Shown in pieces: positions 3,001-30,117 of a stretch of 64,000 nucleotides of DNA (positions are counted from its first letter, which is position 1; every line of letters starts with the position of its first letter). The notes below the pieces were generated by a model that was given only the letters and a program-made list of their open reading frames with translations, was not told where the DNA came from and ran no database searches. Location: the IMG/VR virus record IMGVR_UViG_3300021399_000121, positions 43,502 through 107,501 of that record, one strand, 5' to 3'. Both the position numbers and the translations under genes were made by a program. Source of the DNA: a virus. Taxonomy: Duplodnaviria > Heunggongvirae > Uroviricota > Caudoviricetes.

Positions 3001-3441
3001 ACTTATGTGCGGTATGGTACTAATTCTTCTGGAGCGGGAATGACCGATACACCAACCGCATCTACTACTTATATTGGTGTATATGTCGGTGATAGCGCTA
3101 CAGCACCTACAACTGCAAATTCATATATTTGATCTAAGTATGTCGGTGATAAAGGAGAAAAAGGTGATAAGGGGGATAAAGGTGACACTGGACAAACTGG
3201 TGCGACTGGCCCTGAAGCCGTTGTAACTATTGTACCTAGTAATATTAATTGAGATAATAATACCGCTACTCTTGGAGTAGTATTGAGAGTTAATGGAGTT
3301 GTAACGACACCAACTTCATATAGTTGAACCAAAACTACAGGTACATTTACAACGGATTTAAATGTTACTACACCTACATTTACATTAGATGGTAGTACAA
3401 ATAAGTTAAATTCTACATATAATTGTACTGTCACATGATAA
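1..3441 (+). CDS. Collagen-like tail-fibre structural protein, 5'-truncated, TGA-recoded. Start lies upstream of the window; stop is TAA at 3439-3441.
   Basis: A single frame (codon phase of position 1) is open across about 3.4 kb only if the roughly 25 in-frame TGA codons are sense. It contains Gly-X-Y collagen runs (1120-1190, 1600-1720, 2510-2580, 3150-3230). The repeated motif RYLWNYEI uses TGG in one copy (1312-1314) and TGA at the same position in others (1531-1533, 2437-2439). YTHFAWAN/WFHIAWANSADG motifs resemble Firmicutes phage tail-fibre motifs. No TAA/TAG occurs in this frame. Confidence 0.6.
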
Positions 3442-3455
3442 GATAAGGAGATAAA

Positions 3456-8429: not shown

Positions 8430-8441
8430 AAAGGAGAAAAT

Positions 8442-11662: not shown

Positions 11663-12337
11663 ATGGCTGATATGACTTTAAGTGATATTGCTGCTCTAAA
11701 TCATGATAATGACGGTTGGGGAGGCGGTTGCTGGTGAGTTATTGTACTCTTCGCCCTCATTTTTGGTTGGGGTAATAATGGATTTGGCAACAATGGTTTT
11801 GCTAATGCAATTGGCTATGAAAATCTTGCAACTTCTAATGAAGTACAACGTGGTTTTGATAATCAAAACAGCATGGCAAATCAGCGTGAAATCCTTGCTG
11901 CGGTTAATGCTGGTACCGCACAATCTGTTGCAACCACAAATCAGACATTCCATGATATGCTAGGTGCTCTTAGTGATAAATACATGGAACTACAGCGTGA
12001 CATTGCGGGTTTAGCAGTTGGCCAAGCCAATGCTCTTGCTAATCAAAATCAATGTTGCTGTGACACTAAGATGCTAATTCAGGAGAATGCGGCACAGCAA
12101 CGTTATGAATCTGCTATGCAGAACAATGCTGTTATTCAAGCAATTCAAGCTGAAGGTGCTGCTACTCGTGAAATGTATCAGCAAGATAAGATTGAAGCAC
12201 TACAGAATCGTGTTAATCAATTACAGCTAGATCAAGCTATGCAAGGTGTTGTACGTTATCCTAACATGTTTGCATATAATGCTGGCGCCAATCCATTCTG
12301 CGGTTGCGGTAATGGTGGTTGCTGCGGCAATATTTAA
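11663..12337 (+). CDS. Gly/Cys-rich protein with one hydrophobic segment (VIVLFALIFGWG) and a C-terminal CGCGNGGCCGN tail. It contains one in-frame TGA.
   Basis: ATG 11663 lies behind GAAAGGATGA. It is in frame with ORF 11873..12337 when TGA at about 11735 is sense. Confidence 0.4.
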
Positions 12338-12356
12338 TTAAAAATAGTTAGGGGTA

Positions 12357-12824
12357 ATGTTATACATTACCCCTTATTACTATGTCATTCTCGACAAGGA
12401 AGGAAATTACAAAATGACTTGTAAATCCGCAATTTATACTACAAATGATACTGGTACTACTGTTACAGTTACTAATGATATTCCTGTTCAAGTACCTTAT
12501 GGTGCAATAATTCGTCGCTTTGGTCAAAATGTTCAATCACAAGGTGGCTCAATCCAATGTTGTGGTGCTGGATATTTTGATGTAGATCAAATTTTAACTG
12601 TCACACCAACTGAGGCAGGCCCAATTACAGCTAGACTTTATCAAGACGATAAACCTATCCGTGGAGCTTTTATGACTCTTACAGGAGAAGCTAATACTCC
12701 AATAGCTCTTCCAATTAAAGCTCTTATCCGTAATTGTGGATGTGATTGTAGTAGTGTTTTAACAATAACAATTGATGGTAGTTGTGTTATTAATAACTTC
12801 CCAGCAGTTGTAAAGAAACTTTAA
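12357..12824 (+). CDS. Hypothetical 155-aa protein. The true start may be ATG at about 12414, behind AAGGAAATTACAAA.
   Basis: ORF track entry. Confidence 0.4.
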   Translation: MLYITPYYYVILDKEGNYKMTCKSAIYTTNDTGTTVTVTNDIPVQVPYGAIIRRFGQNVQSQGGSIQCCGAGYFDVDQILTVTPTEAGPITARLYQDDKPIRGAFMTLTGEANTPIALPIKALIRNCGCDCSSVLTITIDGSCVINNFPAVVKKL

Positions 12825-16026: not shown

Positions 16027-16953
16027 ATGACTAACTGTTTTAAACCTTACCTCCATGTTGAAAGATTGGGAAAAACAGAAGTTGATAATATTCTTTGTGG
16101 TACTGTAAGACTTACAGCAAAACTTGATGGTACTAATGCATCTGTGTGGGCAGACGAAGATGGTCGTATGCGTTATGGCAGTCGTAAACGTGAAATTTCT
16201 ATTGAAGATGATAATGCTGGTTTTGCCGCATGGATGAAATCTGATGCAGAAGAAGCTGCTCTCCTTATTCGTTTTTGTCAAGCTAATCCTCATATGATTG
16301 TTTATGGCGAATGGGGTGTATCTAAAGTAGGTGCAATTAAAAAGTATACTAAGGAAGCTATAAATAAACTTTGGATTTTTGATATTTATTCTCGTGAAGA
16401 AGAACGCTATCTCACTTGGGATGAATTCAATGCCGCACTTATTATGTATGATCTAATTGACTATCGAGTGAAGCTTCTGGCTACTTTGACTAACCCAACA
16501 CTTGAGGATATTATTAAGGTTGCAAATGAAAATACTTTCCTTCTTGAAGGAACTGACACTCTTGGAGAAGGTGTTGTAATTCGTAGAGACAATTATACAA
16601 ATTGCTATGGACGTTATGCTGTAGCAAAATATGTGCGGGAAGACTTTAGACCTGATACTCCAAGAGTAAAGAGAATTGTTCAGGCTGGCGAGATTGAACA
16701 AGATTTTATTAATCGTTATCTAACCCAATCTGAACTTGAGAAAGCTAAAGCTAAAACTGCTCTGGCTTGCGGTGAAGAATATGTTCCTGGTAATGGCAAG
16801 TTTATTGGTATGTTTCTTAATCTGCTCTGGAAAGATACTCTTGAAGAGAATATTGTAGATTTTTGTAAGCGTGCTAAGAATCCTCGAATTGATTTTGCCG
16901 CACTTAATGGTTTGATTAAAGCAGAAGGCCGCAAGTTCTTAGGGTTGATGTAA
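16027..16953 (+). CDS. ATP-dependent polynucleotide ligase of the Rnl2-like nucleotidyltransferase family.
   Basis: Motif I AKLDGTN (KxDGxN), motif III LWIFDIY, motif IV LGEGVVIRR and motif V YAVAKYV are all present. The length, 308 aa, is close to that of T4 Rnl2. Confidence 0.55.
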   Translation: MTNCFKPYLHVERLGKTEVDNILCGTVRLTAKLDGTNASVWADEDGRMRYGSRKREISIEDDNAGFAAWMKSDAEEAALLIRFCQANPHMIVYGEWGVSKVGAIKKYTKEAINKLWIFDIYSREEERYLTWDEFNAALIMYDLIDYRVKLLATLTNPTLEDIIKVANENTFLLEGTDTLGEGVVIRRDNYTNCYGRYAVAKYVREDFRPDTPRVKRIVQAGEIEQDFINRYLTQSELEKAKAKTALACGEEYVPGNGKFIGMFLNLLWKDTLEENIVDFCKRAKNPRIDFAALNGLIKAEGRKFLGLM

Positions 16954-16954
16954 T

Positions 16955-17236
16955 ATGAAGAAAATTTTATTTTCTCTTTTGGGTATTGTATTATGTTTTA
17001 GTGTGTGTGGCTGTGCTGGTTCAAAATTAGAAGCACATACTTCTAATGGCAAATCTTTGGAACACGATAGATTTAGAGTGATTGAAGGAGATTATGGCTC
17101 TGAAGCTATTATAGTTGACACTGAAACAGGTGTTGAATATTTATGGATTACTCCAGCTTATCGTAAAGCAGGATTAACTGTACTTGTTGACCATGATGGT
17201 AAACCATTAATCGCCCCAGGGTATAAGGATTCTTAA
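16955..17236 (+). CDS. Small lipoprotein.
   Basis: Signal peptide MKKILFSLLGIVLCFSVCGC with a lipobox-like FSVC. Confidence 0.45.
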   Translation: MKKILFSLLGIVLCFSVCGCAGSKLEAHTSNGKSLEHDRFRVIEGDYGSEAIIVDTETGVEYLWITPAYRKAGLTVLVDHDGKPLIAPGYKDS

Positions 17237-17362
17237 TGGATATATATAAAGTAGTATATGATGATGATCTTTGTTATCATTATGTATCATGGTTTTTTGA
17301 TTTGGATACTGCTAAAAAGTGGTGTAAGATAAATAACCATAATTGGATGCGATGGCATATAT

Positions 17363-17695
17363 ATGATAAGAGAGGACATGAAAAACATGGTGGATGTAAT
17401 GGACCATCTTACTTTGGAACGTAAAGAAATTCCTGTATATGTAGAAAATCTTTATAAATGGACACCGAAACCTGCTATATTAAAACGGGATATTTGCTGG
17501 GACATTCCAGTTTTAGAAGAGTTAGATTGTCCTTATTGTGGCAATAAAGATGGCGTTGATCTTTATTATGATAAAGATATATTTATTTATGTTGATCCAA
17601 AGGGATATCTGCGGTTTGGTACTCCTGATGGTGTAGGTAAAACTGAAATTCAGTTTTGTCCTATGTGTGGTAGACAATTAATAGGTGATAACTAA
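17363..17695 (+). CDS. Zinc-ribbon protein (CPYCG ... CPMCG).
   Basis: ORF track entry; two CxxC pairs. Confidence 0.4.
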   Translation: MIREDMKNMVDVMDHLTLERKEIPVYVENLYKWTPKPAILKRDICWDIPVLEELDCPYCGNKDGVDLYYDKDIFIYVDPKGYLRFGTPDGVGKTEIQFCPMCGRQLIGDN

Positions 17696-17985
17696 TGTGT
17701 GATATTGATAAAATATGGCCTAGTTATGAAGATGGCAGTAAAGTCCATGTTGGTGATTATATTTACTTTGAAAAAGAAGATACTGTTGGTTTAGTTACCG
17801 CTATTAGTTTTACAAAAAATAGTTTTCAAAAATATGTTGTCGATATAGATTATGAATGTAAAGGTCATTGGCATTGTGTCTATAAGACTTATGAAGAAAA
17901 ATATGTATATAAAGATGTTTCAGAAGTACCTGCTTATGCTGATGTTTTAGCACTACATAATTTTAAACGACCTCCTATGAAATAA
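17695..17985 (+). CDS. Hypothetical 96-aa protein.
   Basis: ORF track entry; start overlaps the upstream stop. Confidence 0.4.
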   Translation: MCDIDKIWPSYEDGSKVHVGDYIYFEKEDTVGLVTAISFTKNSFQKYVVDIDYECKGHWHCVYKTYEEKYVYKDVSEVPAYADVLALHNFKRPPMK

Positions 17986-18002
17986 TTATTGTTCTTATAA
18001 TA

Positions 18003-18030
18003 AGGTAGCTCTTGTCAGCTACCTTATTTT
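18003..18030 (+). terminator. Rho-independent terminator.
   Basis: GGTAGCTCTTGTCAGCTACC followed by TTATTTTTAT. Confidence 0.5.
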
Positions 18031-18067
18031 TATGTTATAATATTTTTATAAGGAAAGGGGAAATAGT

Positions 18068-18238
18068 ATGTCCAAAAAGAAGTATCATGGGTCTATTACT
18101 ATTGACCCTAAAATTATTTGGAATGCACAAAAGCCGCATTATAATGGTTGGATGTGCGGACATGGTGCGCATGGAAAAAACAAGTATAGCCGCAAACAAA
18201 AATATAAAACTGATTGGAGAAATTATGACCGAGATTAA
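18068..18238 (+). CDS. Small basic 56-aa protein.
   Basis: A conserved promoter at about 18030-18055 and the RBS AAGGGGAAATAGT precede ATG 18068. The ORF track instead shows a different out-of-frame start at 18012. Confidence 0.4.
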   Translation: MSKKKYHGSITIDPKIIWNAQKPHYNGWMCGHGAHGKNKYSRKQKYKTDWRNYDRD

Positions 18239-18581
18239 TCTTCTTGAAGAGACTGAGCGTGCTTTAATTTCTCATTATAAAACTTGGGATGATATTGCCT
18301 GGATTGGTGGGTATGATTTTTATATTAGTGTTGAACAATTTAAAGAAGCCGCAAAAGATACTAATTATGATGCTGGGTACGGTAGTGAAGAAGTTGCAAT
18401 AGATTTAGTTATTTGTTTTTATAATGGATCATGGCTATCTCGTGGATCTTATGATGGAAGTGAGTGGTGGGAATATAACGAATTTCCATCTAAGCCGCGA
18501 ACAAAATTTGAGGGTAGTGTTAAGTTAGCTGATCCTTGTGGGTACGATGCTTGGGAAGGTTTAAAGGGACTTAATAAATAA
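18224..18581 (+). CDS. Hypothetical protein (MTEINLLEE...).
   Basis: Internal ATG of ORF 18012..18581; overlaps the upstream gene in the ATGA arrangement. Confidence 0.4.
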
Positions 18582-18590
18582 GGAGTAATC

Positions 18591-19868
18591 ATGTCTTGGA
18601 ATCCTGTTTTAAATATGTTCATTGAAATAAAGAATGAATTTATTAAGGAGTGCGGCAAGGATGCTTTGTGGCAGTATGGCCGCGAGGATTCCTTTACTAA
18701 TTGTCTTTCCTATTGGGTGTGGACTCTTGGAAATCATGGTCATCCTAAGCGTCATTATTATTCTAAGGTGATTGAGCCTTTGCTTCTCAATGAGAGTATG
18801 GGTATGTTGCTTATTAAGTATAATGATCTTGGCATTGATTGGAATGCTTATGATGGTTTCTATCGTGAATGTCGGTCTGTTGTAATCGATGTACTTAATG
18901 ATTGTTTGGTTCTTACTCCTTTCCGTAAATTCTTTAATATTAATGAGCTTGAAGAAACTCAACTTCATGTTGTCCAAGAGAAGATAGATAATGCATCTAG
19001 GATAGAAATTACTGACAAGATTGATGGAAGTATGTGCGGTGCTCGTTGGTATCGCAAGGATCTTGTTATGTCTGGTTCTCAAGCTCTTGATATTAGTAAA
19101 TCTTATCGTTTGGAAAATTACTATCATTGGATGCATCAGCATGAAAATGCAGTACAAATGCTCAAAGATTATGATAATTTCACTTTTATTTTTGAAGGAG
19201 TTTTTCCTGATGATGTCCATATAGTACAGTATGACGAACAAATGTTCGGCTTGCATCTTCTTGGAATGCGGCGAGTAGAGGATGGCGTAGAATTACCTTA
19301 TAAGGATGTTGTAGAAATTGCAGAAAAGTATGATGTGCCGCATGTCAAAATTTTTGATATGACTTTTGAAGAGGCTTATCAGGATGCCCTTAATGATGGT
19401 CGTAAGGCCAATGAGGGCGAAGGGTATGTCATTGACATAGATGGTCAGAAGTATAAGCTCAAGTATAATGATTATGTTATGCTTCATCATGCTCTTTGTA
19501 AGATGGTTTCTCCTAATGCTATAATTGCAGCTATCCGTGAAGGCCGTTGGGATGATTTCTATTCAAAGATTCCTGTTGCATATCAACCGCAAGCTAAGGA
19601 AAAGGCTGATAATGTTTATAAATACGTACAAATGTTCGATGAACGTGTTATAAAGTGGTATAACCTCACTCGTGATTTTGTAGATTATACTAACGATCGC
19701 AAGACCTTTATGATTGCTGTTGATAAAGTTGTACCTAAGCAATATCAAGGGTCGGTACGTGCTAAGTTCTTAGGTCAAAAAATCGATTATTTCCGTGGTG
19801 TTAAGTACGGAGATATGATTGATTATATCGAGTTAATGCAGACTTTAACTTTAAATATTAAGGCTTGA
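18591..19868 (+). CDS. Second nucleotidyltransferase ligase, Rnl1-like. It ends at a TGA.
   Basis: Motif I KIDGSM (compare T4 Rnl1 KEDGSL), motif IV EGYVIDIDG and motif V KLKYNDYV. Confidence 0.45.
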   Translation: MSWNPVLNMFIEIKNEFIKECGKDALWQYGREDSFTNCLSYWVWTLGNHGHPKRHYYSKVIEPLLLNESMGMLLIKYNDLGIDWNAYDGFYRECRSVVIDVLNDCLVLTPFRKFFNINELEETQLHVVQEKIDNASRIEITDKIDGSMCGARWYRKDLVMSGSQALDISKSYRLENYYHWMHQHENAVQMLKDYDNFTFIFEGVFPDDVHIVQYDEQMFGLHLLGMRRVEDGVELPYKDVVEIAEKYDVPHVKIFDMTFEEAYQDALNDGRKANEGEGYVIDIDGQKYKLKYNDYVMLHHALCKMVSPNAIIAAIREGRWDDFYSKIPVAYQPQAKEKADNVYKYVQMFDERVIKWYNLTRDFVDYTNDRKTFMIAVDKVVPKQYQGSVRAKFLGQKIDYFRGVKYGDMIDYIELMQTLTLNIKA

Positions 19869-19937
19869 GAATGAAATTCTTTATTGACACCTGCATGTTA
19901 AATATGCTATAATATTATTATAAGAAAGGAGAGATAT

Positions 19938-20432
19938 ATGACTCAATGTGATGAAGCTATCCGTCGTCAGTTGCGTAAGCCTACTGTGTATATTATGTGC
20001 GGCGTGCCTGGTTCTGGCAAGACATATTTTTGTAAGAACGTATTGATGGATCATCCTTGGCGTAGTCGAGTCTATATCTCTTCTGATGATATTCGTGAAG
20101 AGCTTTATGGTGATGCTAGTAATCAATCTCTTAATGGTATCGTTTTTGATATTTTTTATGAGCGTGCTCGTGAAGCTATCAAAAATGGTAGTGACGTAAT
20201 TCTTGATGCAACGCATCTGACTAAGAAATCTCGTCGCAAATGCCGCAATCATTTTAAAGATTTGGATTGTAAGTTTATTGTGGTTCAGATGAATACATCG
20301 ATATTGGATGCGGTTTATCGTAATAAGAAACGTGACAGGGTTGTCCCTGCTGATGCGATGAATCGCATGATTGAAGTATATCAGCCTGTTGAAGATAGCG
20401 AAGGTTTTGATTATATCTGGAAGGTAGATTAA
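19938..20432 (+). CDS. P-loop polynucleotide-kinase-like protein.
   Basis: Walker A GVPGSGKT lies near the N-terminus of a 164-aa protein. It is adjacent to a phosphoesterase and two ligases. Confidence 0.5.
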   Translation: MTQCDEAIRRQLRKPTVYIMCGVPGSGKTYFCKNVLMDHPWRSRVYISSDDIREELYGDASNQSLNGIVFDIFYERAREAIKNGSDVILDATHLTKKSRRKCRNHFKDLDCKFIVVQMNTSILDAVYRNKKRDRVVPADAMNRMIEVYQPVEDSEGFDYIWKVD

Positions 20433-20992
20433 TGATTTATCTAAGCTCAGATTTACATTTTGGACATGACCGTGGTTTTATCTATGAGCCGCGAGGATTT
20501 TCTAGTATCCAGGAGCATGATGAAGCAATCATTGAAAGATTTAATAGCGTTGTGCGGCCTGATGATGATCTCTATCTCTTGGGTGATCAAATGCTTGGTG
20601 ATAATGAACATGGTTTAGATTGTTTGCTACGGCTTAATGGTAAACTTCATATTCTTTGGGGTAACCATTGTACTAATGTGCGTAAAGAATTATATTATAC
20701 TCTTTCTAATGTTGTAGAGACTCTTGGATATGCGGGAATACTTAAATATAAAAAGTGGAGGTTTTATCTTTCGCATTATCCTACTATTACGGATAACCTT
20801 AATGATGTGTCTAAGCCTTGGGAACAAGTAAAATGTCTTTATGGACATACTCATCAAAAGACTAATTTCTATAGTGATAATCCTTTGCTTTATCATGTAG
20901 GCGTGGATAGTCATAATTGTTATCCTGTAAGTATTGATCAAATCATTGAAAATATTCAAGCTAAGTTTTTAGAATGTAAACAGATGCTTTAA
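20432..20992 (+). CDS. Calcineurin-like metallophosphoesterase.
   Basis: Motifs DLHFGHD, LGDQ and GNHC are present. The start overlaps the upstream stop. Confidence 0.6.
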   Translation: MIYLSSDLHFGHDRGFIYEPRGFSSIQEHDEAIIERFNSVVRPDDDLYLLGDQMLGDNEHGLDCLLRLNGKLHILWGNHCTNVRKELYYTLSNVVETLGYAGILKYKKWRFYLSHYPTITDNLNDVSKPWEQVKCLYGHTHQKTNFYSDNPLLYHVGVDSHNCYPVSIDQIIENIQAKFLECKQML

Positions 20993-21128
20993 AATTTTTG
21001 TTGACGGCAGTTTAAAAAATATGTTATAATATATTTATCAAAAGGGGATAAAAAAGGTTTTTTGGTTTTTATATAAAATGAAAGTTTTATCCCCTTTAAA
21101 AAAATCTTACGATTGTTAAAAGTTTTTA

Positions 21129-21159
21129 TTGACAATTGAAAAGAAAATATGATATAATA
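21129..21159 (+). promoter_or_regulatory. Strong sigma70 promoter firing into the 1.4-kb ORF-free block upstream of the tRNA array.
   Basis: TTGACA at 21129-21134 and TATGATATAAT ending at 21159. Confidence 0.55.
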
Positions 21160-21165
21160 AATATG

Positions 21166-22600
21166 TAAGGTTGAGAGAGTTAATAAGGTGCTTCTAAAGA
21201 AGAAACACAATATTAGGTTTCTTAACCTAATAACCTTGAAAACAGAATAGTTGAAGATTTAGGTGCAACTCAGTGCAGAGCGGTGTCAACGTGCTGAGGG
21301 TTCTTCTCAATGAGTTGAGACTCCTGAAGGATACTTCCGCAGTCAAGCTTTAAGGTGAATCGTGAGGTTTACTTTAGAAGGTAGGAACTACCAACAAAAT
21401 GAAGAATGCGCTTAGTCTATTTGCTAAGGAAAGATACTTGTAAATTGTCGTCTCCGCAATAGACGCCCCAGTGGGGAAGAATCCAGAACACTTATTAACA
21501 GGTGGTGCTGAATAAGAAAAAGCTGGAAATACCAATAAGGAGATTGAGCTGTTGACTCTCTGGTAACAGAGGGAATAAGACAAGGGCAAGGTTCGAGTAG
21601 CACAAAGCAGCTCCTTATATTAATGAATATTAGGAGAATATATTAATGCTGAAAGACGTGTGAAAGTTGTGGGTAATCATTCCTACGGTAGAGATGGCCT
21701 TAACGGCTGGGGTAAGAAGTATGACGGTCGCTCCGATATACTCAGCCTTATCTCCTACATGATCGAATATCCAGTAAATAGATGCGGTACAGTGAAGACT
21801 GGCATGTATATCTTCAACTATTCTGTTTGAAGGAATTGACGTAATAGTTCGTTCGCGTCATTAAATAAAACGGCATCCTGGTTAGGCAGGTTTATAAAAG
21901 AGAGTAGCCTAACATGCTCTCTAGTGTGATTTAGTGTATACAGAGTAAGGCTTTTTATTGCTGATTGGCCCGCTGCGTACTTCTTGACATGGTTAAAAAC
22001 CGCAGAAAAGAATTCAGCAACCCGGAAGATTGGTCTAAGACTGTGCTAGGAAAAGGCTAAAAAGACTAGTTACGTAACTGGTATGCGGACACCGCTCGGT
22101 AGAGAAAGTCCGCAACGTAGCTTAAAGGGCTGAGATAACTGCTAAACAGTTTATGCCTTAGAGGGCATTTATAAAAAATGCTTTCTTAGGTATATTTAAT
22201 GCCAGTGTAGTGAGAATCGACTACACTATAAAATAAAATCATGATTCTCTGGTTTTGAAATCACCTGAACCAAAAAGAATTTCTGTTTTTATGTGTTTGA
22301 ACGAAATCAAGTACATCCCGCGCAAGATAGGGTGATGATCTTGCCGCAAGTCTATGCGTAAAGTAAAGATCGCTTGTAGGTTAAGAGCGTCAGAACCTTC
22401 TGTAGTTTATACTTTCTCTACGATAAGGGTGGTGCCTATGAAAGTATCTTCTCTTGGAGGATATACCTATATATCTAAAAATCATATCAGCCATAACGGG
22501 TATATCTTCCAAAAGGAGTAATCCTATTGTCGTTGCGAGCATGCCGATAAGACGTTAAACTATTTCGTATGCGGTGGTCGTGTTACACCTTACCCAACAC
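21166..22600 (+). ncRNA. Candidate large structured ncRNA of the GOLLD/ROOL class by genomic context.
   Basis: About 1.4 kb with no ORF longer than about 70 aa in six frames. GC is about 45-50%. A consensus promoter lies directly upstream and the 17-tRNA array directly downstream. Confidence 0.35.
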
Positions 22601-22609
22601 TTTTATTTT

Positions 22610-22685
22610 GGCCTTGTAGTTAAGTTGGTTATAATAATTGTCTTGTAAACAATAGTCCTCAGTTCGAATCTGTGCGAGGCCTCCA
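22610..22685 (+). tRNA. tRNA-Thr (anticodon TGT).
   Basis: Cloverleaf folded by hand: acceptor GGCCTTG/CGAGGCC, anticodon loop CTTGTAA, T-loop TTCGAAT, CCA encoded. Confidence 0.6.
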
Positions 22686-22688
22686 TAC

Positions 22689-22763
22689 CGGGCGTTAGTG
22701 AAGCGGTTATCACAATGGTCTGTCTAACCATTATCACGGGTTCGATTCCCGTACGCCTGGCCA
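22689..22763 (+). tRNA. tRNA-Asp (anticodon GTC); tentative.
   Basis: D-stem GTGA/TCAC, anticodon stem ATGGT/ACCAT with loop CTGTCTA, T-arm ACGGGTTCGATTCCCGT, CCA encoded. Confidence 0.45.
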
Positions 22764-22766
22764 TAT

Positions 22767-22853
22767 GCCGAAGTCGCATAGTCTGGTCAATTGCATCGCG
22801 CTGTAAACGCGACGGCTCGTCCTGCGGGAGTTCAAATCTCTCCTTCGGCACCA
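22767..22853 (+). tRNA. tRNA-Tyr (anticodon GTA), type II with a long variable arm.
   Basis: Acceptor GCCGAAG/CTTCGGC, anticodon loop CTGTAAA, long variable arm, CCA encoded. Confidence 0.6.
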
Positions 22854-22862
22854 GTTAATTAC

Positions 22863-22940
22863 ACCCCAGTAGCTCAGTCTGAAAAGAGCATTGCGCTACG
22901 GACGCAAGTGTCGTGGGTTTGAATCCTACCTGGGGTGCCA
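22863..22940 (+). tRNA. tRNA-Arg (anticodon ACG).
   Basis: Acceptor ACCCCAG/CTGGGGT (7 bp), D-arm TAGCTCAGT, loop CTACGGA, CCA encoded. Confidence 0.6.
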
Positions 22941-22949
22941 ATAATCAAT

Positions 22950-23024
22950 GGGAGTCTAGCTGAGATGGATTAGCAAGGGTCTGAAAAGCCCTGGAGGAGG
23001 GATCGTTACCTTCGGCTCCCACCA
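22950..23024 (+). tRNA. tRNA-Phe (anticodon GAA) with an atypical T-loop, ATCGTTA.
   Basis: Acceptor GGGAGTC/GGCTCCC, anticodon stem AGGGT/GCCCT with loop CTGAAAA, CCA encoded. Confidence 0.5.
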
Positions 23025-23025
23025 T

Positions 23026-23100
23026 GCGGGGTTAGCTCAATGGTGGAGCAGAGGACTCATAATCCTTTGGCTGTAGGTTCAAATCCTACACTCCGCACCA
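23026..23100 (+). tRNA. tRNA-Met/fMet (anticodon CAT).
   Basis: Acceptor GCGGGGT/ACTCCGC, loop CTCATAA, T-loop TTCAAAT, CCA encoded. Confidence 0.6.
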
Positions 23101-23103
23101 AAT

Positions 23104-23180
23104 GCGCTTGTAGCAGAATTGGCATATGCACCGGACTCAAAATCCGGGATTTGTGAGTTCGACTCTCACCAGGCGCACCA
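23104..23180 (+). tRNA. tRNA with a tRNA-Trp-like body but anticodon loop CUCAAAA (nominal anticodon CAA) on a type I scaffold. It is a candidate recoding tRNA.
   Basis: Its anticodon stem CCGGA/TCCGG and T-arm GTGAGTTCGACTCTCAC closely resemble bacterial tRNA-Trp. A CAA anticodon on a short-variable-arm tRNA is anomalous. CCA is encoded. Confidence 0.45.
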
Positions 23181-23183
23181 AAT

Positions 23184-23264
23184 GCCCTTGTGGTGGAATT
23201 GGAAGACACGCGTGCCTTAGGAGCACGTGCTTAGGCGTGGGGGTTCGAATCCCTCCAGGGGCAG
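23184..23264 (+). tRNA. tRNA-Leu (anticodon TAG), type II.
   Basis: Acceptor GCCCTTG/CAGGGGC, anticodon stem CGTGC/GCACG with loop CTTAGGA, long variable arm. Confidence 0.55.
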
Positions 23265-23325
23265 TTGCGAGAATCAGAAACCTCCACGTGGTTCGCAATG
23301 GTTAACACTAATATCTGATATTTAT

Positions 23326-23396
23326 TGGCGATTAGTTCAATAGTAGAACTCGGGCCTTTGGCACCCGTAACGGGGGAGCGTTACCTCCATCGCCAG
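23326..23396 (+). tRNA. tRNA-Gln (anticodon TTG). Position 1 is U, as in bacterial tRNA-Gln.
   Basis: Acceptor TGGCGAT/ATCGCCA, loop CTTTGGC, atypical T-loop AGCGTTA. Confidence 0.5.
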
Positions 23397-23398
23397 CC

Positions 23399-23473
23399 CG
23401 TTCCTTAGTATAAAAGTTATTACAGACGCCTGATAAGCGTCAGAACCAGGAGCGTTACCTGGAGGAACGACCA
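23399..23473 (+). tRNA. tRNA-Ile (anticodon GAT).
   Basis: Acceptor CGTTCCT/AGGAACG, anticodon stem GACGC/GCGTC with loop CTGATAA, T-stem CCAGG/CCTGG, CCA encoded. Confidence 0.55.
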
Positions 23474-23475
23474 AT

Positions 23476-23552
23476 GTCGGCATCGTCTAGTTGGACTAGG
23501 ACACTACCCTTTCAAGGTAGAAACGCGGGATCGTAGCCCGCTGCTGATACCA
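23476..23552 (+). tRNA. tRNA-Glu (anticodon TTC).
   Basis: Anticodon stem CTACC/GGTAG with loop CTTTCAA, T-arm GCGGGATCGTAGCCCGC, CCA encoded. Confidence 0.5.
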
Positions 23553-24538: not shown

Positions 24539-24802
24539 TCGCTCGTGACGCAGCTGGTAGCGTAGTGGACTTTCGATTGGAAGCCTTATAAGGAAACTTA
24601 TAAGTGAACAGCTCGCTAAATCGGTGAAACCTTTAAAATGGTAATACCGAGCAAGGGAAACCGTGTGTAGAGACTTTACACGAGCCACCTAAGTTTTATA
24701 ATATGGTGAAGATAAAGTCCAGACCACAAACAGAAATGGCTATGAAAATAGTAGTGGTATGTAATCCATTAGTCGCGGGTTCGAATCCCGCCGGGCGAAC
24801 CA
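24539..24802 (+). tRNA. Candidate split tRNA with an anticodon-loop intron. The 5' half is at 24539-24572 and the 3' half at 24765-24802, separated by about 190 nt.
   Basis: The acceptor TCGCTCG pairs 7/7 with CGGGCGA across 250 nt. The 5' half has a canonical D-arm (ACGC AGCTGGTA GCGT) and the 5' strand of an anticodon stem, GTGGA. The 3' half has the partner strand TCCAT, T-arm GCGGGTTCGAATCCCGC and an encoded ACCA. One possible splice restores the loop CUUUUAA (Lys-UUU); another restores CUUGUAA (Thr). Confidence 0.35.
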
Positions 24803-25154: not shown

Positions 25155-25261
25155 TTTTTTTCTTTTTTATAATCAATTCTGCCAAATAACAAAAAATTAT
25201 AATCATTTGTGATATAATTTTATATATAATAGAAAAGATATTATTGCAGGAAGGAGAGATT

Positions 25262-27016
25262 ATGAAGAAGTTTTTAGCCATTTTATTAACAATAATGTGT
25301 TTAATGATCATTCCTATCACCGCATATGCCGCAGATGATAATGACGCGACACATGATATTACTGTGGAGTGGTATATTGGAGATTGGGATGGTAACGAAC
25401 AACTCCTAGAGTCAGATTTCATTGAAGATGTTCCTAATGGAGTCTTTAATTATAAAGATTTAGTTTGGAATCCAAAGGGTGGAACTTTTTACCGTGAATA
25501 TGGGATTTTACCTATTATTAGAGTAAATGGAAAATATTATTTGCTCTCTTGGACAGATGTTGAATGCAATTATCCTATGAATAATGATGCCTGGGAAGTT
25601 GAATTTAAACAAGAGCCTAACCATCCTGGAGACGATGAAAATTGTTATATGGGTTTTCATTATTCAGAAGTAAAGTTTGCAACAAAAGAAACTAAAGATA
25701 AAATTAAAGTAAGTATTGATGGCTCAGCCAATGAAAATTTAACAGAACCTACAACTTATCAAGTATATCAAATTTTTGATGTGCGGAAGTCTGCTGATGT
25801 CCAAGAGGATGTAACTACAGATGAAACTGTTGGAAAAACAATAACAAATGAAGATAGCGGATTCGCATATTATATTAAAAGTAATAGTGAATGGTATGAT
25901 GTAATTGCATCAATGCCGCAATATTTCAATTTAATTCAAACAACTGAAGAAGGTTTATATAATGTTGTTCTTGCGGATGGGGTAGTTCCGCAAGAGTCTA
26001 CTGCTATTGAAATTGCTGCAGAGCTTGAAAAACATATCGATGGTAAAACTAGTACAACATTAACCGCAAATGAAGCTAATATGGAAATGAATCCAGGTTA
26101 TTATTTAATTGTCTCTCCAATTAATTCTAATCTCATTTTAGCTACAACGAATATTGATATTACTGAAAAAGCTCAATATCCTACAATAGAAAAAACTATC
26201 GCAGAAGAAGATATTAACTCTTCTATTGGACAATTAGTTCATTTTACAGTAAATGTAAAATTTCCCAGAGGAAGTAAAGCATCTGCGGTTATTACAGATG
26301 TTATGGATGAAGGTTTAACTTTTAAAGAAATTACTTCTATTAATATTAATAATTATAATATTAATACAACTAAAGATGGTTTTGAAATTAATATAGATGC
26401 AGATACTATTAAAGCATTTGCGGCCGATAGTGAAAATACTTTAACTTTTGAATATACTGCTTTAGTTAATAAAAAGGCTATTGTTAATACGGATATCAAT
26501 AATGAAGTTACTTTAACATATGTAAATTATGTTCAATCTGATTCCGTAAAAACATCTGTAACAGAAATGAATCTTTTGAAGTATGCCGCAGAAGATGAAG
26601 ATAAAAATGTCTTATCTGGTGCAGAATTTCAAATTCTAGATGAAGATGGTACTCCTGTTGAACTATATGAAATTACACCTGATACAGAATATAGAGTAGC
26701 AACCGAGGAGGATGCTACTTCAATGAATACCTTTCGCACCAGAAACACACTTATTAGCATCAACGGGCTCGATGCAGATAAACATTACAGATTACGGGAA
26801 ATTAATGCTCCAGCAGGATATAATAAATTGTCCTCTGATGTTTCAGTGGAGCTCCAACAAACTTCCTCAGTCCTTCTAGAAATAGCTAATTTTAAAGGTA
26901 TAGAGCTTCCCTCTACAGGTGGAATTGGCGTTATAATCTTTTATCTGATAGGTGGGGTATTAATTCTTATCGGAATTATCTGTCTCGTCTATCATAAGAA
27001 AAAAACAAAAGAATAA
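25262..27016 (+). CDS. Secreted, sortase-anchored (LPXTG-type) surface protein, adhesin- or pilin-like.
   Basis: RBS AGGAAGGAGAGATT precedes ATG 25262. It has an N-terminal signal peptide. The C-terminus carries LPSTGG, a hydrophobic helix and HKKKTKE. Internal beta-rich repeats are present. Confidence 0.6.
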   Translation: MKKFLAILLTIMCLMIIPITAYAADDNDATHDITVEWYIGDWDGNEQLLESDFIEDVPNGVFNYKDLVWNPKGGTFYREYGILPIIRVNGKYYLLSWTDVECNYPMNNDAWEVEFKQEPNHPGDDENCYMGFHYSEVKFATKETKDKIKVSIDGSANENLTEPTTYQVYQIFDVRKSADVQEDVTTDETVGKTITNEDSGFAYYIKSNSEWYDVIASMPQYFNLIQTTEEGLYNVVLADGVVPQESTAIEIAAELEKHIDGKTSTTLTANEANMEMNPGYYLIVSPINSNLILATTNIDITEKAQYPTIEKTIAEEDINSSIGQLVHFTVNVKFPRGSKASAVITDVMDEGLTFKEITSININNYNINTTKDGFEINIDADTIKAFAADSENTLTFEYTALVNKKAIVNTDINNEVTLTYVNYVQSDSVKTSVTEMNLLKYAAEDEDKNVLSGAEFQILDEDGTPVELYEITPDTEYRVATEEDATSMNTFRTRNTLISINGLDADKHYRLREINAPAGYNKLSSDVSVELQQTSSVLLEIANFKGIELPSTGGIGVIIFYLIGGVLILIGIICLVYHKKKTKE

Positions 27017-27257: not shown

Positions 27258-27445
27258 TGTCGGAAAATATGATTTTTAATTGTGAAAAATGCGGAAAAGC
27301 TTTTTTTGCTACTCCGCAAGATTATAGAACAACTTTTTGACGAGGGGATTTTATAAAAGAATCTTATTGTCCTTATTGCGGCGCCATTATTCAAATACAT
27401 TCAAAAGATAATTCTTTTTCAAGTTCTAATGGAGGAAAATTTTAA
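27257..27445 (+). CDS. Paralogous zinc-ribbon protein (CEKCG ... CPYCG) with an in-frame TGA at 27338-27340.
   Basis: Overlapping starts and stops (TAATG at both ends). The two Cys pairs are restored only if the TGA is sense. Confidence 0.35.
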
Positions 27446-28413
27446 TGGCAGTATTATTTAATTCTGTTCGTCCACTTTATCGTTGTGAAAATTTAACCGC
27501 CATTTGGAATGCTTATCAAGAAGATAAAACATTTAAACAATATGGATATGGTGATTTAACTAAAAGCTGTAGAGATTTTCCTGTTGTTGTAACAGATGAA
27601 TTTATACGCAATAAGGTTATTGGTCAAAAAATAATTATGATTGCCCATGGTTTAACGGGTGGTAAACTTTATGGAATAGATCAGCCGCATGGGCAATTTA
27701 AACCACAATGCTGTAGATTAACAAACTATTATATTACTAGTAGTGAATACGGTCGTAAATTCGCGTCTAGCGCTGCGGGTATTCCAATTGATAGATGCCT
27801 CGCACTAGGTATGCCTCGTACTGATAATTATATAAATAAACAAAGAGGAGACGGAGGAACCTTCTTAGCAAAAAGCTATAATAGAGTTTATTTATATTTA
27901 CCAACTTTTCGTGCAAAATATAATAAACCAACGCCTAAAATAAATTATGAATATTTAAATTCATTGTTAGAAGAGGATGAGTTATTTGTTGTAAAAAGAC
28001 ATATGATCAGTAAAAAGAGGATATTGCCGCACACAATGTCCAATATTTATGAAGTCGATAGTGTGGAAATAACAACTCCTTATCTCTTGGATTGTGATGT
28101 TGTCGTAACTGATTTTAGTAGCGTTATGTTTGATGCTCATTTTTTAAATAAGCCTGTTGTACTTACTGCAGATGAAAATGATGAATATTTAATTTCTCGT
28201 GGTATGTATATGAATTATCCTTATGATTATAGTTCTAGAGCTATAGCAGTTGAAGGAAATGAAGAGAAACTTGTAGCTCTTATGAGAGACGCTGCTTCAA
28301 ATGGTATGACAGATGTAGAATTACAATGTCGAGAACGCACTTCTGGCGCTTGCGATGGACATTCAAGTGAGCGAGTGGTTAAATTAATTAAAGATATTAT
28401 AAATGAGACTTAA
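27445..28413 (+). CDS. CDP-glycerol glycerophosphotransferase-like (TagB/TagF family) teichoic-acid-type transferase.
   Basis: LYLPTFR resembles the conserved (Y)APT(W/F)R motif of TagB/TagF; 322 aa. Confidence 0.45.
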   Translation: MAVLFNSVRPLYRCENLTAIWNAYQEDKTFKQYGYGDLTKSCRDFPVVVTDEFIRNKVIGQKIIMIAHGLTGGKLYGIDQPHGQFKPQCCRLTNYYITSSEYGRKFASSAAGIPIDRCLALGMPRTDNYINKQRGDGGTFLAKSYNRVYLYLPTFRAKYNKPTPKINYEYLNSLLEEDELFVVKRHMISKKRILPHTMSNIYEVDSVEITTPYLLDCDVVVTDFSSVMFDAHFLNKPVVLTADENDEYLISRGMYMNYPYDYSSRAIAVEGNEEKLVALMRDAASNGMTDVELQCRERTSGACDGHSSERVVKLIKDIINET

Positions 28414-29100: not shown

Positions 29101-29312
29101 ATATAAACAAATGCCTGTTCGACTCAGGCTCGGTCCTCCTGTGGGCTGATCGTTTAAGTACGGCAAGACTTGTTTTAAAATATTTGTTGACGGTTGTTTA
29201 ATTTTTATGCTATAATATATACATAAGGTAAGGGAGATAATTATTCGAATTAATTGCTGTCTCTCTTGGATGATTAGTTTAAAAGAAAAAATAATTAAGC
29301 CTTAAATTTTTA

Positions 29313-29342
29313 ATTGACAATTAAATAAAAAATATGTTATAA
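29313..29342 (+). promoter_or_regulatory. Consensus promoter firing into an ORF-free block. A second tandem promoter lies at about 29172-29205.
   Basis: TTGACA at 29313-29318 and TATGTTATAAT ending at 29342. Confidence 0.5.
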
Positions 29343-29349
29343 TATAAAT

Positions 29350-30110
29350 ATAGAAAAGGGAAAGTTAAACATTCTCGCCAATATCAACCAAAGCGGTTCC
29401 GGGAGCAACGATTTGGAGAGACGGCCTAGACGCGGGTGTGGGAAGTGATGCCACATAGCGAAAAACGAGAGTGGGGAGTAGCTACCCCAGGAATTGGTCG
29501 GGATACAACGAGAAGGCTCGTACCGAGTAAACCTAAGTCGAAGGTAAGAATGTTTAACTATTCGTTTTCTGAAACGAAGTACAAAAGAGATGGGTTCTCC
29601 ATTCTCGTATAAGGTTGATAGTCCTTTCAAACTAAACTATCCGTCCATGCGTGATGACGTTAAAAGCTAACGTATAGCGAAAGGTTGACGAACCAAGTAG
29701 CGGCGTAAGGGTTTTCTTATGCTTTCTTTTCCAACAATGCTTCGGCCGTAAGCAGCCACGTGATAAGTGGTATAAAGAAAGCGCCATAGAGATGGTGACA
29801 GGTCCGATTGAATGCTGAAGCTCATGCGAACTCGGTAAGCGAGTTAGGGTACAAAGGCTAAACCCTCCGAGTAATGTGCACGTAGTTTGTTAACTCTTCT
29901 TCTGCGAAAGCCGAACCAAAAAAGAAGAGAAATTGATACTGAATGGTCAAGGAAAAGACAGAAAAACCAAAGTCGTGTGAAGACTATAAAGCTCGGCTGG
30001 TTTTGTGGACATAGGCAAAGAACTTCCTACCAGAAAAAATATTAGGAAGGGGTTTTTCCAGCGGCAGGTTGTGAGTCCTGATAAAGTGCGTAAAGACGCC
30101 ACCCGCATTT
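29350..30110 (+). ncRNA. Candidate structured ncRNA (about 760 nt) immediately upstream of tRNA-Cys and tRNA-Ser.
   Basis: No ORF of 75 aa or more. GC is about 48%. It is promoter-driven. The minus-strand ORF 29337..29630 is likely an antisense artefact. Confidence 0.35.
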
Positions 30111-30117
30111 ATTTTAT

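What the first reader, a model, noticed from the sequence alone, without database searches (positions are those of the whole stretch)
21166..22600. 1.4-kb promoter-driven ORF-free block abutting the tRNA array
A perfect consensus promoter at 21129-21159 fires into 1.4 kb with no ORF above about 70 aa in any frame. The block has about 10-15% higher GC than its surroundings and many short hairpins, and it ends exactly at the first tRNA. Large ornate ncRNAs of the GOLLD and ROOL classes are characteristically found next to tRNA clusters in phages and prophages of Firmicutes.
Basis: partly seen in the sequence, partly recalled or inferred. Interest (0 to 1): 0.7.

Follow-up and report, generated by a model that had tools for sequence, protein, structure and literature searches.

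The report
ROOL RNA heading a phage tRNA operon
The gene-free 1.4 kb is not one unknown RNA: its first 40% is a textbook copy of the known cage-forming phage RNA "ROOL", and the rest is a chain of conserved, folded but unannotated RNA modules that link ROOL to the phage's tRNA genes.

Summary
A perfect promoter conserved in all 11 related loci (21129..21158) leads into about 1.44 kb with no credible ORF, ending at tRNA-Thr (22610).

ROOL covers only 577 nt.

The other 790 nt (21822..22609) match no Rfam family. They consist of self-contained folded domains on the + strand:
- **Module A**, nearly invariant, follows ROOL in every relative.
- **Modules B1, B2 and C** come and go between relatives.
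- **Module D**, a covarying hairpin/pseudoknot plus U-run, abuts tRNA-Thr.

Compensatory base changes support B1, B2 and D. Covariance models of A, B2 and D hit only this phage clade, not other ROOL phages. Relatives without a tRNA array keep ROOL plus A and then have a clean terminator.

Most likely this is one non-coding operon: promoter, leader, ROOL plus A, structured spacer, tRNAs. It sits directly after an RNA-repair gene cassette in a phage that reads TGA as Trp.

Verdict: ROOL is a known family; the trailer modules are new but clade-restricted, and their function is unknown. Moderate interest.

The parts
21001..21030 (+). Upstream promoter P1 (TTGACG-18-TATAAT with TG)
   Evidence: 11/12 matches. 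Conserved in the 11-locus alignment.
21041..21097 (+). Conserved hairpin between P1 and P2 (AAAGGGGAUAAA...UUUAUCCCCUUU): a short RNA or a terminator
   Evidence: The stem changes on both sides in L117 (AGGGAGAGAU/AUCUCUCCU) and L129 (AAAGGAUAAG/CUUAUCUUU).
21129..21158 (+). Promoter P2, perfect sigma-70 consensus with extended -10 (TATGATATAAT)
   Evidence: 12/12 matches. Invariant in 11 of 11 loci.
21166..21244 (+). 5' leader of the ROOL transcript. AAGGUU pairs with AACCUU around one or two hairpins. These hairpins are optional or expanded in relatives.
   Evidence: Read directly from the sequence and the alignment. The transcription start is inferred from the -10 box.
21245..21821 (+). ROOL RNA (RF03087), full length. 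The closing helix extends to 17 bp (21238..21254 with 21812..21828).
   Evidence: 331 bits, gathering score 99.1, E = 1.7e-75, model 1-574/574. Orthologous ROOL hits of 333-359 bits in L001, L002, L117-L120, L129 and L132. The helix extension is read from the sequence.
21837..21926 (+). Module A, the ROOL 3' appendage. It comprises stem UGACG/CGUCA, with a possible pseudoknot CCGUU/AACGG, then two hairpins whose loops are complementary (GUUAGGC/GCCUAAC). The last hairpin (21899..21922) is terminator-like.
   Evidence: Present after ROOL in all 12 loci. The core CGTTCGCGTCATTAAANAAAACGGC is invariant. Covariance model R3 scores 103-181 bits and hits only this clade. There is one compensatory loop-loop change, in L120. 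Terminator-like call. Seven relatives carry a 63-nt covarying insert in the first loop.
21935..22114 (+). Module B1: a self-contained multi-branch domain plus the hairpin GCGGAC...GUCCGC. It is optional: absent in L001, L120 and L132.
   Evidence: RNAalifold predicts 40 pairs, 4 with changes on both sides, and many G.U pairs that fit only the + strand. Presence and absence.
22124..22234 (+). Module B2: a small hairpin, a 15-bp long hairpin with a variable tip, and the hairpin AGUGUAGU...ACUACACU followed by AUAAAAUAAAAU.
   Evidence: 31 pairs, 8 with changes on both sides. Covariance model R2 scores 110-127 bits in 9 loci of the clade and nowhere else.
22239..22524 (+). Module C. The variable part is found only in window-type loci, with a divergent longer version in L120 and L132. 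The conserved long hairpin CUCUUGGAGG...CUUCCAAAAGGAG (22451..22518) is present in all tRNA-linked loci, with a variable tip.
   Evidence: Alignments. 1-2 nt indels between window, L001 and L002 rule out coding. No separate covariation count was made.
22527..22609 (+). Module D. It contains helix 22539..22544 with 22567..22572, and a 5-bp stem 22580..22584 with 22596..22600. The invariant GGUG (22573..22576) and CACC (22586..22589) could form an H-type pseudoknot or a competing helix. A U-run UUUUAUUUU follows at 22601..22609.
   Evidence: 98.8% of cells paired against 86.1% in shuffles (0 of 500 as high). 7 pairs change on both sides. Slid controls give 20-54% paired. Covariance model R1 scores 88-107 bits in 10 loci, always directly before tRNA-Thr and nowhere else.
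22610..23552 (+). tRNA array: Thr, Asp, Tyr, Arg, Phe, Met, Leu, Leu, (Gln-like), Ile, Glu. It has no promoter box of its own and is inferred to be co-transcribed from P2.
   Evidence: The phage's ~50-nt promoter box recurs at ~20990, ~21148 and ~23811 but not in between. The only promoter-like sites inside the block are not conserved.

Best explanation
The block is the non-coding head of a phage RNA operon.

A strong conserved promoter (21129..21158) starts a transcript with this order:
1. An ~80-nt leader.
2. A canonical ROOL RNA (21245..21821). This family is known to self-assemble into RNA-only cages; its function is unknown.
3. A nearly invariant 90-nt 3' appendage (module A) that always travels with ROOL in this phage clade and ends in a weak terminator-like hairpin.
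4. About 600 nt of autonomous folded RNA domains (B1, B2, C), which are gained and lost between relatives.
5. Module D, a covarying hairpin/pseudoknot with a U-run placed 0 nt from tRNA-Thr.
6. The 10-11 tRNA array, reached by read-through.

Shown: ROOL identity, promoter conservation, + strand RNA structure with compensatory changes in B1, B2 and D, modularity, and restriction of the modules to this clade.

Inferred:
- ROOL, the modules and the tRNAs are one primary transcript.
- RNase P cutting at tRNA-Thr leaves the upstream RNA with a protective hairpin and U tail.
- The hairpins of modules A and D act as partial terminators or insulators. They would let ROOL accumulate above the tRNAs and keep its fold separate from theirs.
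- Homing endonucleases, which populate such arrays, drive the module shuffling.
For: ROOL:
- for the window, and for orthologues.

Promoter:
- (11 of 11 loci).

Structure:
- for D: 7 covarying pairs, 0 of 500 shuffles as high.
- for B2: 8 covarying pairs.
- for B1: 4 covarying pairs.
- for A.
- The + strand fold has z = -3.76, the - strand -1.84.
- G.U pairs in these helices fit only the + strand.

Not coding:
-.

A belongs with ROOL, B-D with the tRNAs:
- L118 and L130 have ROOL plus A and no B-D or tRNAs. A terminator-like hairpin AAACCCUAUUUUUAUAGGGUUU plus a T-run follows in L118, and then phage ORFs.
- All loci with B-D have tRNA-Thr immediately after D.

No internal promoter:
- (promoter-box map).
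- The promoter-like site at 21984 lies in a window-specific insertion.

Endonucleases in arrays:
- PDDEXK_5 and GIY-YIG ORFs.

ROOL biology:
- PMC5737381 and PMC12286853: cages, proximity to tRNA islands, and possible co-transcription suggested there.
Against: - There are no transcript data. Co-transcription, processing and attenuation are inferences.
- The module D stem is only 5 bp with an 11-nt loop, which is weak for an intrinsic terminator. The scan did not flag it.
- Module A is almost invariant, so its helices and pseudoknot have almost no covariation support. Only one loop-loop compensatory event was seen.
- The alignments hold just 6-12 closely related sequences (79-100% identity in ROOL). 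The covariation therefore rests on few independent events.
- At the DNA level B-D are not more conserved than the neighbouring genes (80-90% against 70-92%).
- Rfam's speed filters missed a real group I intron elsewhere in this window. The negative Rfam result for 21780..22640 used laxer filters on 861 nt but is still not absolute.
Confidence: 0.8

Rival explanations
1. The 3' 790 nt hold one or more independent new functional RNAs rather than spacers. Module D, and perhaps the invariant module A pseudoknot, could be a ligand- or tRNA-sensing attenuator that gates read-through into the tRNA array. Alternatively, the whole trailer could be a tether or cargo domain that travels with the ROOL cage.
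For: - The module A core is invariant across loci whose ROOL differs by up to 21%.
- Module D has strictly invariant single-stranded-looking segments (GCGGUGG, ACACCUUAYCC) around a freely covarying stem followed by a U-run. This is the layout of an expression platform.
- D always sits directly before tRNA-Thr.
- PMC12286853 proposes that such cages hold covalently linked tRNAs or linkers.
Against: - No known aptamer or T-box match.
- There is no alternative-structure covariation, because the GGUG/CACC helix never varies.
- Modules B1 and C are dispensable in relatives.
- The modules are absent from other ROOL phages, where tRNAs flank ROOL directly.
Confidence: 0.25
2. The trailer is evolutionary debris: scars of homing-endonuclease traffic, decayed tRNAs or decayed introns. 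On this view the hairpins are incidental and it is conserved only because the phages are close relatives.
For: - Mosaic presence and absence of modules.
- Endonuclease genes sit in these arrays.
- DNA identity of B-D is similar to that of the neighbouring genes.
- The modules are restricted to one clade.
Against: - Compensatory double changes keep the helices in D, B2 and B1.
- Indels fall at domain boundaries or hairpin tips, not inside stems.
- Module A is more conserved than ROOL and the genes in the divergent loci.
- No tRNA-like or intron-like Rfam signal in the block.
Confidence: 0.1
3. Part of the block encodes protein under an alternative genetic code.
For: This phage does read TGA as Trp in its structural genes. 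With TGA read through, frames of 141 codons (21624..22047) and 94 codons (22237..22519) open on the + strand.
Against: - The 141-codon frame overlaps the 3' third of the ROOL match and module A.
- The 94-codon frame is broken by 1- and 2-nt indels in L001 and L002.
- Substitutions are compensatory in stems rather than three-periodic.
- No frame approaches the length of real genes here (control).
Confidence: 0.02
4. The trailer is a very divergent RNase P RNA or another known ribozyme serving the tRNA array.
For: B1 contains GUAGAG(G/A)AAGUCC, which resembles the RNase P CR-I motif (recalled from memory, a lead only). It lies next to tRNAs.
Against: - No RNase P, group I or group II hit in 21780..22640 at E <= 10.
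- The motif sits in a local hairpin, not a long-range P4.
- B1 is missing from L001, L120 and L132.
Confidence: 0.03

Closest known systems
ROOL RNA (Rfam RF03087; Weinberg et al. 2017, PMC5737381; cryo-EM cages, PMC12286853)
   Same: 21245..21821 matches the whole model far above threshold. It is phage-borne, next to a tRNA array, in sequences related to rumen or gut metagenome contigs, and has its own strong promoter.
   Different: - In this clade ROOL heads the array rather than sitting between tRNAs, as it does in L137-L139.
- It carries a structured 5' leader and an invariant 90-nt 3' appendage outside the Rfam model.
- It is separated from the first tRNA by about 700 nt of further structured modules.
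- It lies directly after an RNA ligase, kinase and phosphoesterase cassette.
GOLLD RNA (RF02032)
   Same: A large ornate phage RNA in tRNA arrays. It has a conserved part plus a variable part, and tRNAs are sometimes embedded or adjacent. The modular conserved-plus-variable layout of ROOL plus trailer is reminiscent of this.
   Different: There is no GOLLD match in the window, whereas GOLLD was detected in another locus with the same tool (L138). There is no sequence or structure similarity.
Small stable RNAs co-transcribed with the phage T4 tRNA cluster (species 1 and 2 / RNAs C and D; from my own knowledge, not checked here)
   Same: Non-tRNA structured RNAs of unknown function encoded inside a phage tRNA transcription unit and released by tRNA-processing enzymes.
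   Different: No sequence relation was tested. The T4 RNAs are about 140 nt single units, not a 790-nt chain of modules behind a ROOL.
Intrinsic terminators and transcription attenuators
   Same: The last hairpin of module A and the module D stem are each followed by U-rich tracts. A clean terminator replaces B-D in the relative L118, which lacks tRNAs.
   Different: The module D stem is short (5 bp, 2-3 G-C pairs) with an 11-nt conserved loop. No alternative antiterminator is supported by covariation. Function is untested.

Membership tests
ROOL RNA (RF03087) | Covariance-model score at or above the curated gathering score, over the whole model | tested here: met
   331 bits against 99.1, E = 1.7e-75, model 1-574/574, not truncated.
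ROOL RNA (RF03087) | Orthologues in related genomes also score as ROOL at the same place | tested here: met
   333-359 bits in L001, L002, L117, L118, L119, L120, L129 and L132, all between the phosphoesterase gene and module A.
ROOL RNA (RF03087) | Genomic setting: phage or prophage, near tRNA genes | tested here: met
   tRNA array from 22610. The closest relatives found are IMG/VR viral contigs. Context as described in PMC5737381 and PMC12286853.
ROOL RNA (RF03087) | Self-assembly into a hexameric or octameric RNA cage | not testable with these tools
   Requires cryo-EM or native gels. Inferred only from family membership.
GOLLD RNA (RF02032) | Covariance-model match to the conserved 3' domain | tested here: not met
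   No hit in the window at the gathering score, nor at E <= 10 in 21780..22640. The tool did find GOLLD in L138.
Any other Rfam 15 family (riboswitches, T-box, RNase P, tmRNA, group I/II introns, HEARO, raiA, OLE) for 21822..22609 | Covariance-model match | tested here: not met
   Only chance-level miRNA and snoRNA hits at E 1.5-6. Same result for the divergent orthologue L132. Caveat: the speed filters missed a true group I intron elsewhere in larger searches.
Intrinsic terminator (module D, 22580..22609) | G+C-rich stem-loop immediately followed by a U-run | tested here: inconclusive
   The U-run UUUUAUUUU is present and the stem covaries. However, the stem is 5 bp with an 11-nt loop and was not called by the terminator scan.
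Protein-coding gene (standard or TGA=Trp code) | Long conserved open frame without frame-breaking indels | tested here: not met
   No ORF above 73 aa. Stop-to-stop frames reach 81 codons under the standard code and 141 codons under TGA read-through. 1-2 nt indels occur among relatives.

The most novel reading that the evidence does not exclude
The ROOL flanks are functional additions to the cage RNA, not packaging. On this reading the invariant module A pseudoknot and the module D pseudoknot with its U-run form a new cis-acting device. It would either sense something (a tRNA or a metabolite) to gate read-through from ROOL into the tRNA array, or physically tether the tRNA precursor to the ROOL cage. 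That would tie ROOL to the neighbouring RNA-repair cassette and to the phage's TGA-to-Trp recoding as one translation-takeover module.
Probability: 0.2. Interest if true: 0.7.

Novelty: new variant of a known kind. Interest (0 to 1): 0.45.

Why it matters
ROOL has been known since 2017 and its cage structure since 2025, but its function is still unknown.

This clade offers a natural experiment:
- The same ROOL occurs with and without a downstream tRNA array.
- It occurs with and without individual flanking modules.
- It is always behind the same promoter and always next to two RNA ligases, a polynucleotide-kinase-like protein and a phosphoesterase.
- The phage recodes TGA.

This gives concrete constructs for testing several questions. 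Is ROOL made as one precursor with tRNAs? Where do its real ends lie? Do appended RNA domains sit inside or outside the cage?

The trailer modules A, B1, B2 and D are also candidate new motifs for RNA family databases.

Tried and rejected
1. **Cultured-phage relatives.** blastn of the block against 50,697 phage records found no match.
2. **Exact-pattern scans.**
   - The module C pattern found only the two known IMG/VR relatives.
   - A ROOL 16-mer gave about 110 chance loci.
   - The module A core found 5 metagenome loci, one of them chance (L133).
   - In genomes it found only a chance hit (L135).
3. **More distant phosphoesterase homologues** (58-63% identity; L121-L128) carry no ROOL or modules.
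4. **Covariance models** of modules D, B2 and A over 468 kb found nothing outside the clade, no second copy in the window, and nothing next to other phages' ROOLs.
5. **RNase P idea** from the CR-I-like motif in B1: rejected (and B1 is dispensable).
6. **Degenerate tRNA or intron-containing tRNA** inside the block: none, by ARAGORN with introns allowed and by Rfam.
7. **Alternative genetic code:** rejected for the block, although the phage does recode TGA.
8. **Small ORF behind the AAGGAG at 22513:** the start codon is not conserved.
9. **RNA-ligase linkage to ROOL in other ROOL phages:** not seen within the short loci available. No paper in the library mentions ROOL together with RNA ligase.
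10. **'More conserved than proteins' argument:** withdrawn after a like-for-like DNA comparison.

Full report
**Observation**

- A TTGACA-18-TATAAT promoter (12/12 matches, with the TG of an extended -10) lies at 21129..21158.
- No ORF above 73 aa overlaps 21166..22600.
- tRNA-Thr(UGU) starts at 22610 and opens an array of 10-11 tRNAs.
- GC is 0.400 in the block, against 0.364 for the window, 0.353 for the upstream genes and 0.314 downstream. The excess is real but modest: 4-9 points.
- ORF-freeness alone is what random AT-rich DNA gives. What makes the block stand out is its setting in a dense phage genome, and the promoter, which is invariant in all 11 related loci I could align.

**Identity of the first part**

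A scan of the whole window against Rfam 15 finds ROOL RNA (RF03087) at 21245..21821 on the + strand. The score is 331 bits against a gathering score of 99.1, E = 1.7e-75, covering model positions 1-574 of 574.
- The closing helix is longer than in the model: 21238..21254 pairs perfectly with 21812..21828 over 17 bp (read).
- The same ROOL, at 333-359 bits, sits at the same place in relatives from IMG/VR, ENA, JGI and Logan assemblies: L001, L002, L117-L120, L129 and L132.
- ROOL is a known family. It averages 581 nt, is found in phages and prophages near tRNAs (PMC5737381), and forms hexameric or octameric RNA-only cages (PMC12286853, PMC12990946). Its function is unknown.

**The remaining 790 nt**

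21822..22609 has no Rfam match. This holds even at E <= 10 with permissive filters on an 861-nt query, and for the more divergent orthologue L132.
- The + strand folds better than shuffles (z = -3.76), the - strand less so (z = -1.84).
- I collected related loci through the flanking RNA ligase and phosphoesterase proteins and through an invariant 22-mer. Aligning 12 of them shows that the stretch is a chain of autonomous domains.

*Module A (21837..21926)* follows ROOL in every locus.
- Its core CGTTCGCGTCATTAAANAAAACGGC never varies.
- Seven relatives carry a 63-nt covarying insert in its first loop.
- Its two terminal hairpins have complementary loops (GUUAGGC/GCCUAAC), with one compensatory change in L120.

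*Module B1 (21935..22114)* is a closed multi-branch domain. It has 40 predicted pairs, 4 covarying, and many G.U pairs. It is absent from L001, L120 and L132.

*Module B2 (22124..22234)* has 31 pairs, 8 covarying.

*Module C (22239..22524)* is specific to window-type loci, except for a conserved long hairpin at 22451..22518.

*Module D (22527..22609)* is the best supported.
- It has 19 pairs with 98.8% of cells paired, against 86.1% in shuffles (0 of 500 as high).
- Seven pairs change on both sides, and slid controls give 20-54% paired.
- It holds a 6-bp helix, a freely covarying 5-bp stem and a U-run ending at the first base before tRNA-Thr.
- The invariant GGUG and CACC could make an H-type pseudoknot.

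**Not coding, and not something else known**
- Frames stay short under the standard code and under TGA, TAG or TAA read-through.
- Relatives differ by 1-2 nt indels inside the longest candidates.
- This check matters because the phage does read TGA as Trp in its structural genes.
- ARAGORN with introns allowed finds no tRNA in the block.
- A resemblance of GUAGAG(G/A)AAGUCC in B1 to the RNase P CR-I motif led nowhere, and B1 is dispensable.

**Distribution**

Covariance models built from D, B2 and A were searched over the window plus 40 loci, 468 kb in all. They hit only the loci of this phage clade, each at the expected position.
- They do not hit the ROOL-bearing loci L137, L138 and L139/L145. 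There, tRNAs flank ROOL directly, and GOLLD, drum and OLE-like matches share the arrays.
- Two relatives, L118 and L130, have ROOL plus module A but no B-D and no tRNAs.
- In L118 a terminator-like hairpin with a T-run follows module A, and then phage ORFs.
- So A belongs to ROOL, and B-D belong with the tRNA array.

**Mechanism**

The phage's ~50-nt promoter box recurs at about 20990, 21148 and 23811 but not in between. The promoter-like sites inside the block are not conserved. I therefore infer a single primary transcript in this order: P2, leader, ROOL plus A, B-D, then the tRNAs.

Further inferences:
- RNase P cutting at tRNA-Thr would leave the upstream RNA ending in the module D hairpin and U tail.
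- The weak terminator-like hairpins at 21899..21922 and 22580..22600 could let ROOL accumulate above the tRNAs.
- The modules could also keep the ROOL fold insulated from the tRNAs.
- Homing-endonuclease genes (PDDEXK_5, GIY-YIG) sit in these arrays. They give a plausible cause for the mosaic gain and loss of modules.

None of these steps is shown by transcript data.

**Context**

Immediately upstream lies a cassette conserved with ROOL in L117-L120 and L129:
- an Rnl2-type RNA ligase (16027..16953)
- an Rnl1-type RNA ligase (18591..19868)
- an AAA_33 kinase (19938..20432)
- a Metallophos_2 phosphoesterase (20432..20992)

Together with the tRNA array and the TGA recoding, this looks like a translation-maintenance region. 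The library searched holds no paper linking ROOL to RNA ligases. The link did not show up in the short loci available for other ROOL phages.

**Limits**
- The alignments hold 6-12 close relatives, so the covariation rests on few events.
- Module A's helices are invariant and therefore untested.
- At the DNA level B-D are no more conserved than the neighbouring genes.
- Rfam's filters missed a true group I intron in larger searches. A full-sensitivity scan of the trailer is still owed.

**Verdict**

What is new is the conserved promoter-driven architecture, with a structured leader, an invariant 3' appendage, and about 700 nt of unannotated, covarying, clade-restricted RNA modules bridging to the tRNAs. 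Interest is moderate.

Noticed in passing
window 24539..24802 (intron 24562..24743): A tRNA gene split by a ~190-nt group I intron. RF00028 scores 59.9 bits (gathering score 50), E = 4.7e-15, but only when the 281-nt stretch is searched alone. The whole-window and 7-kb scans missed it. ARAGORN reads it as Tyr. However, relatives L156 and L158 have an intron-less tRNA-Lys(UUU) at exactly this position, and the exon junction CUUU|UAA fits group I rules. It is therefore tRNA-Lys(UUU).
   Followed up: yes
window 1..10478, + strand: TGA is read as an amino acid, evidently Trp. Three consecutive frames of 1146, 1660 and 682 codons have no TAA or TAG but 23, 14 and 9 in-frame TGAs. They translate into continuous proteins that include collagen-like Gly-X-Y runs. 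In a four-fold repeat YLWNYE, the W is TGG once and TGA three times. No tRNA with anticodon UCA is in the window. ORFs between 11 and 45 kb mostly end in TAA.
   Followed up: partly
window 29187..30117: A second unit with the same layout as the ROOL unit: promoter plus hairpin (29187..29270), second promoter (29306..29343), then about 770 nt that are ORF-free, GC 0.44-0.46, and end at tRNA-Cys/tRNA-Ser. There was no Rfam hit at E <= 0.1 in a 7-kb search. It is conserved in L156/L157 (93%), L004, L161/L162 and L160, with modular indels. RNAalifold gives 66 pairs, 15 covarying. L004 and L161 carry tRNA-like inserts whose 'anticodon' loop is a 4-6 nt loop. The fold z-score is not significant. This is a candidate unannotated large RNA.
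   Followed up: partly
window 23264..23341: A weak HDV-like ribozyme match (RF02682, 28.2 bits against a gathering score of 44, E = 0.04). It starts at the last base of tRNA-Leu(UAG). The 61-nt spacer is 95% conserved in L001 and L131. This position is the one described for theta ribozymes in recoded gut phages (PMC10879173).
   Followed up: no
window 16027..20992: An RNA-repair-type cassette directly upstream of ROOL: Rnl2-like ligase, DUF6440, Rnl1-like ligase, AAA_33 (polynucleotide-kinase-like) and Metallophos_2 phosphoesterase. It is syntenic with ROOL in L117-L120 and L129. In L119 it is interrupted by GIY-YIG and HNH-like endonuclease genes.
   Followed up: partly
window ~13514, 14630, 15453, 18026, 20990, 21148, 23811, 29170, 29306, 32601, 39505, 42291, 45618: A ~50-nt promoter box (A/T-rich UP-like stretch, TTGAC, extended -10 TATGATATAAT) recurs at least 12 times on the + strand. 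It looks like a phage promoter family.
   Followed up: no
L138 2541..2667, 7558..8229, 12269..12780; L139 10084..10167; L137 187..276: Other large phages carry ROOL inside big tRNA arrays. The same arrays hold GOLLD, drum RNA and partial OLE-like matches, along with PDDEXK_5 and GIY-YIG endonuclease ORFs.
   Followed up: no
window 23326..23396: A tRNA found by Rfam (42 bits) but not by ARAGORN. The same position holds tRNA-Gln(UUG) in L001 and L131.
   Followed up: no
window 25244..27016 and 27445..28413: A phage-encoded protein with Gram-positive pilin domains (SpaA, Cna-B-like) and a CDP-glycerol glycerophosphotransferase. Both point to a Gram-positive host.
   Followed up: no
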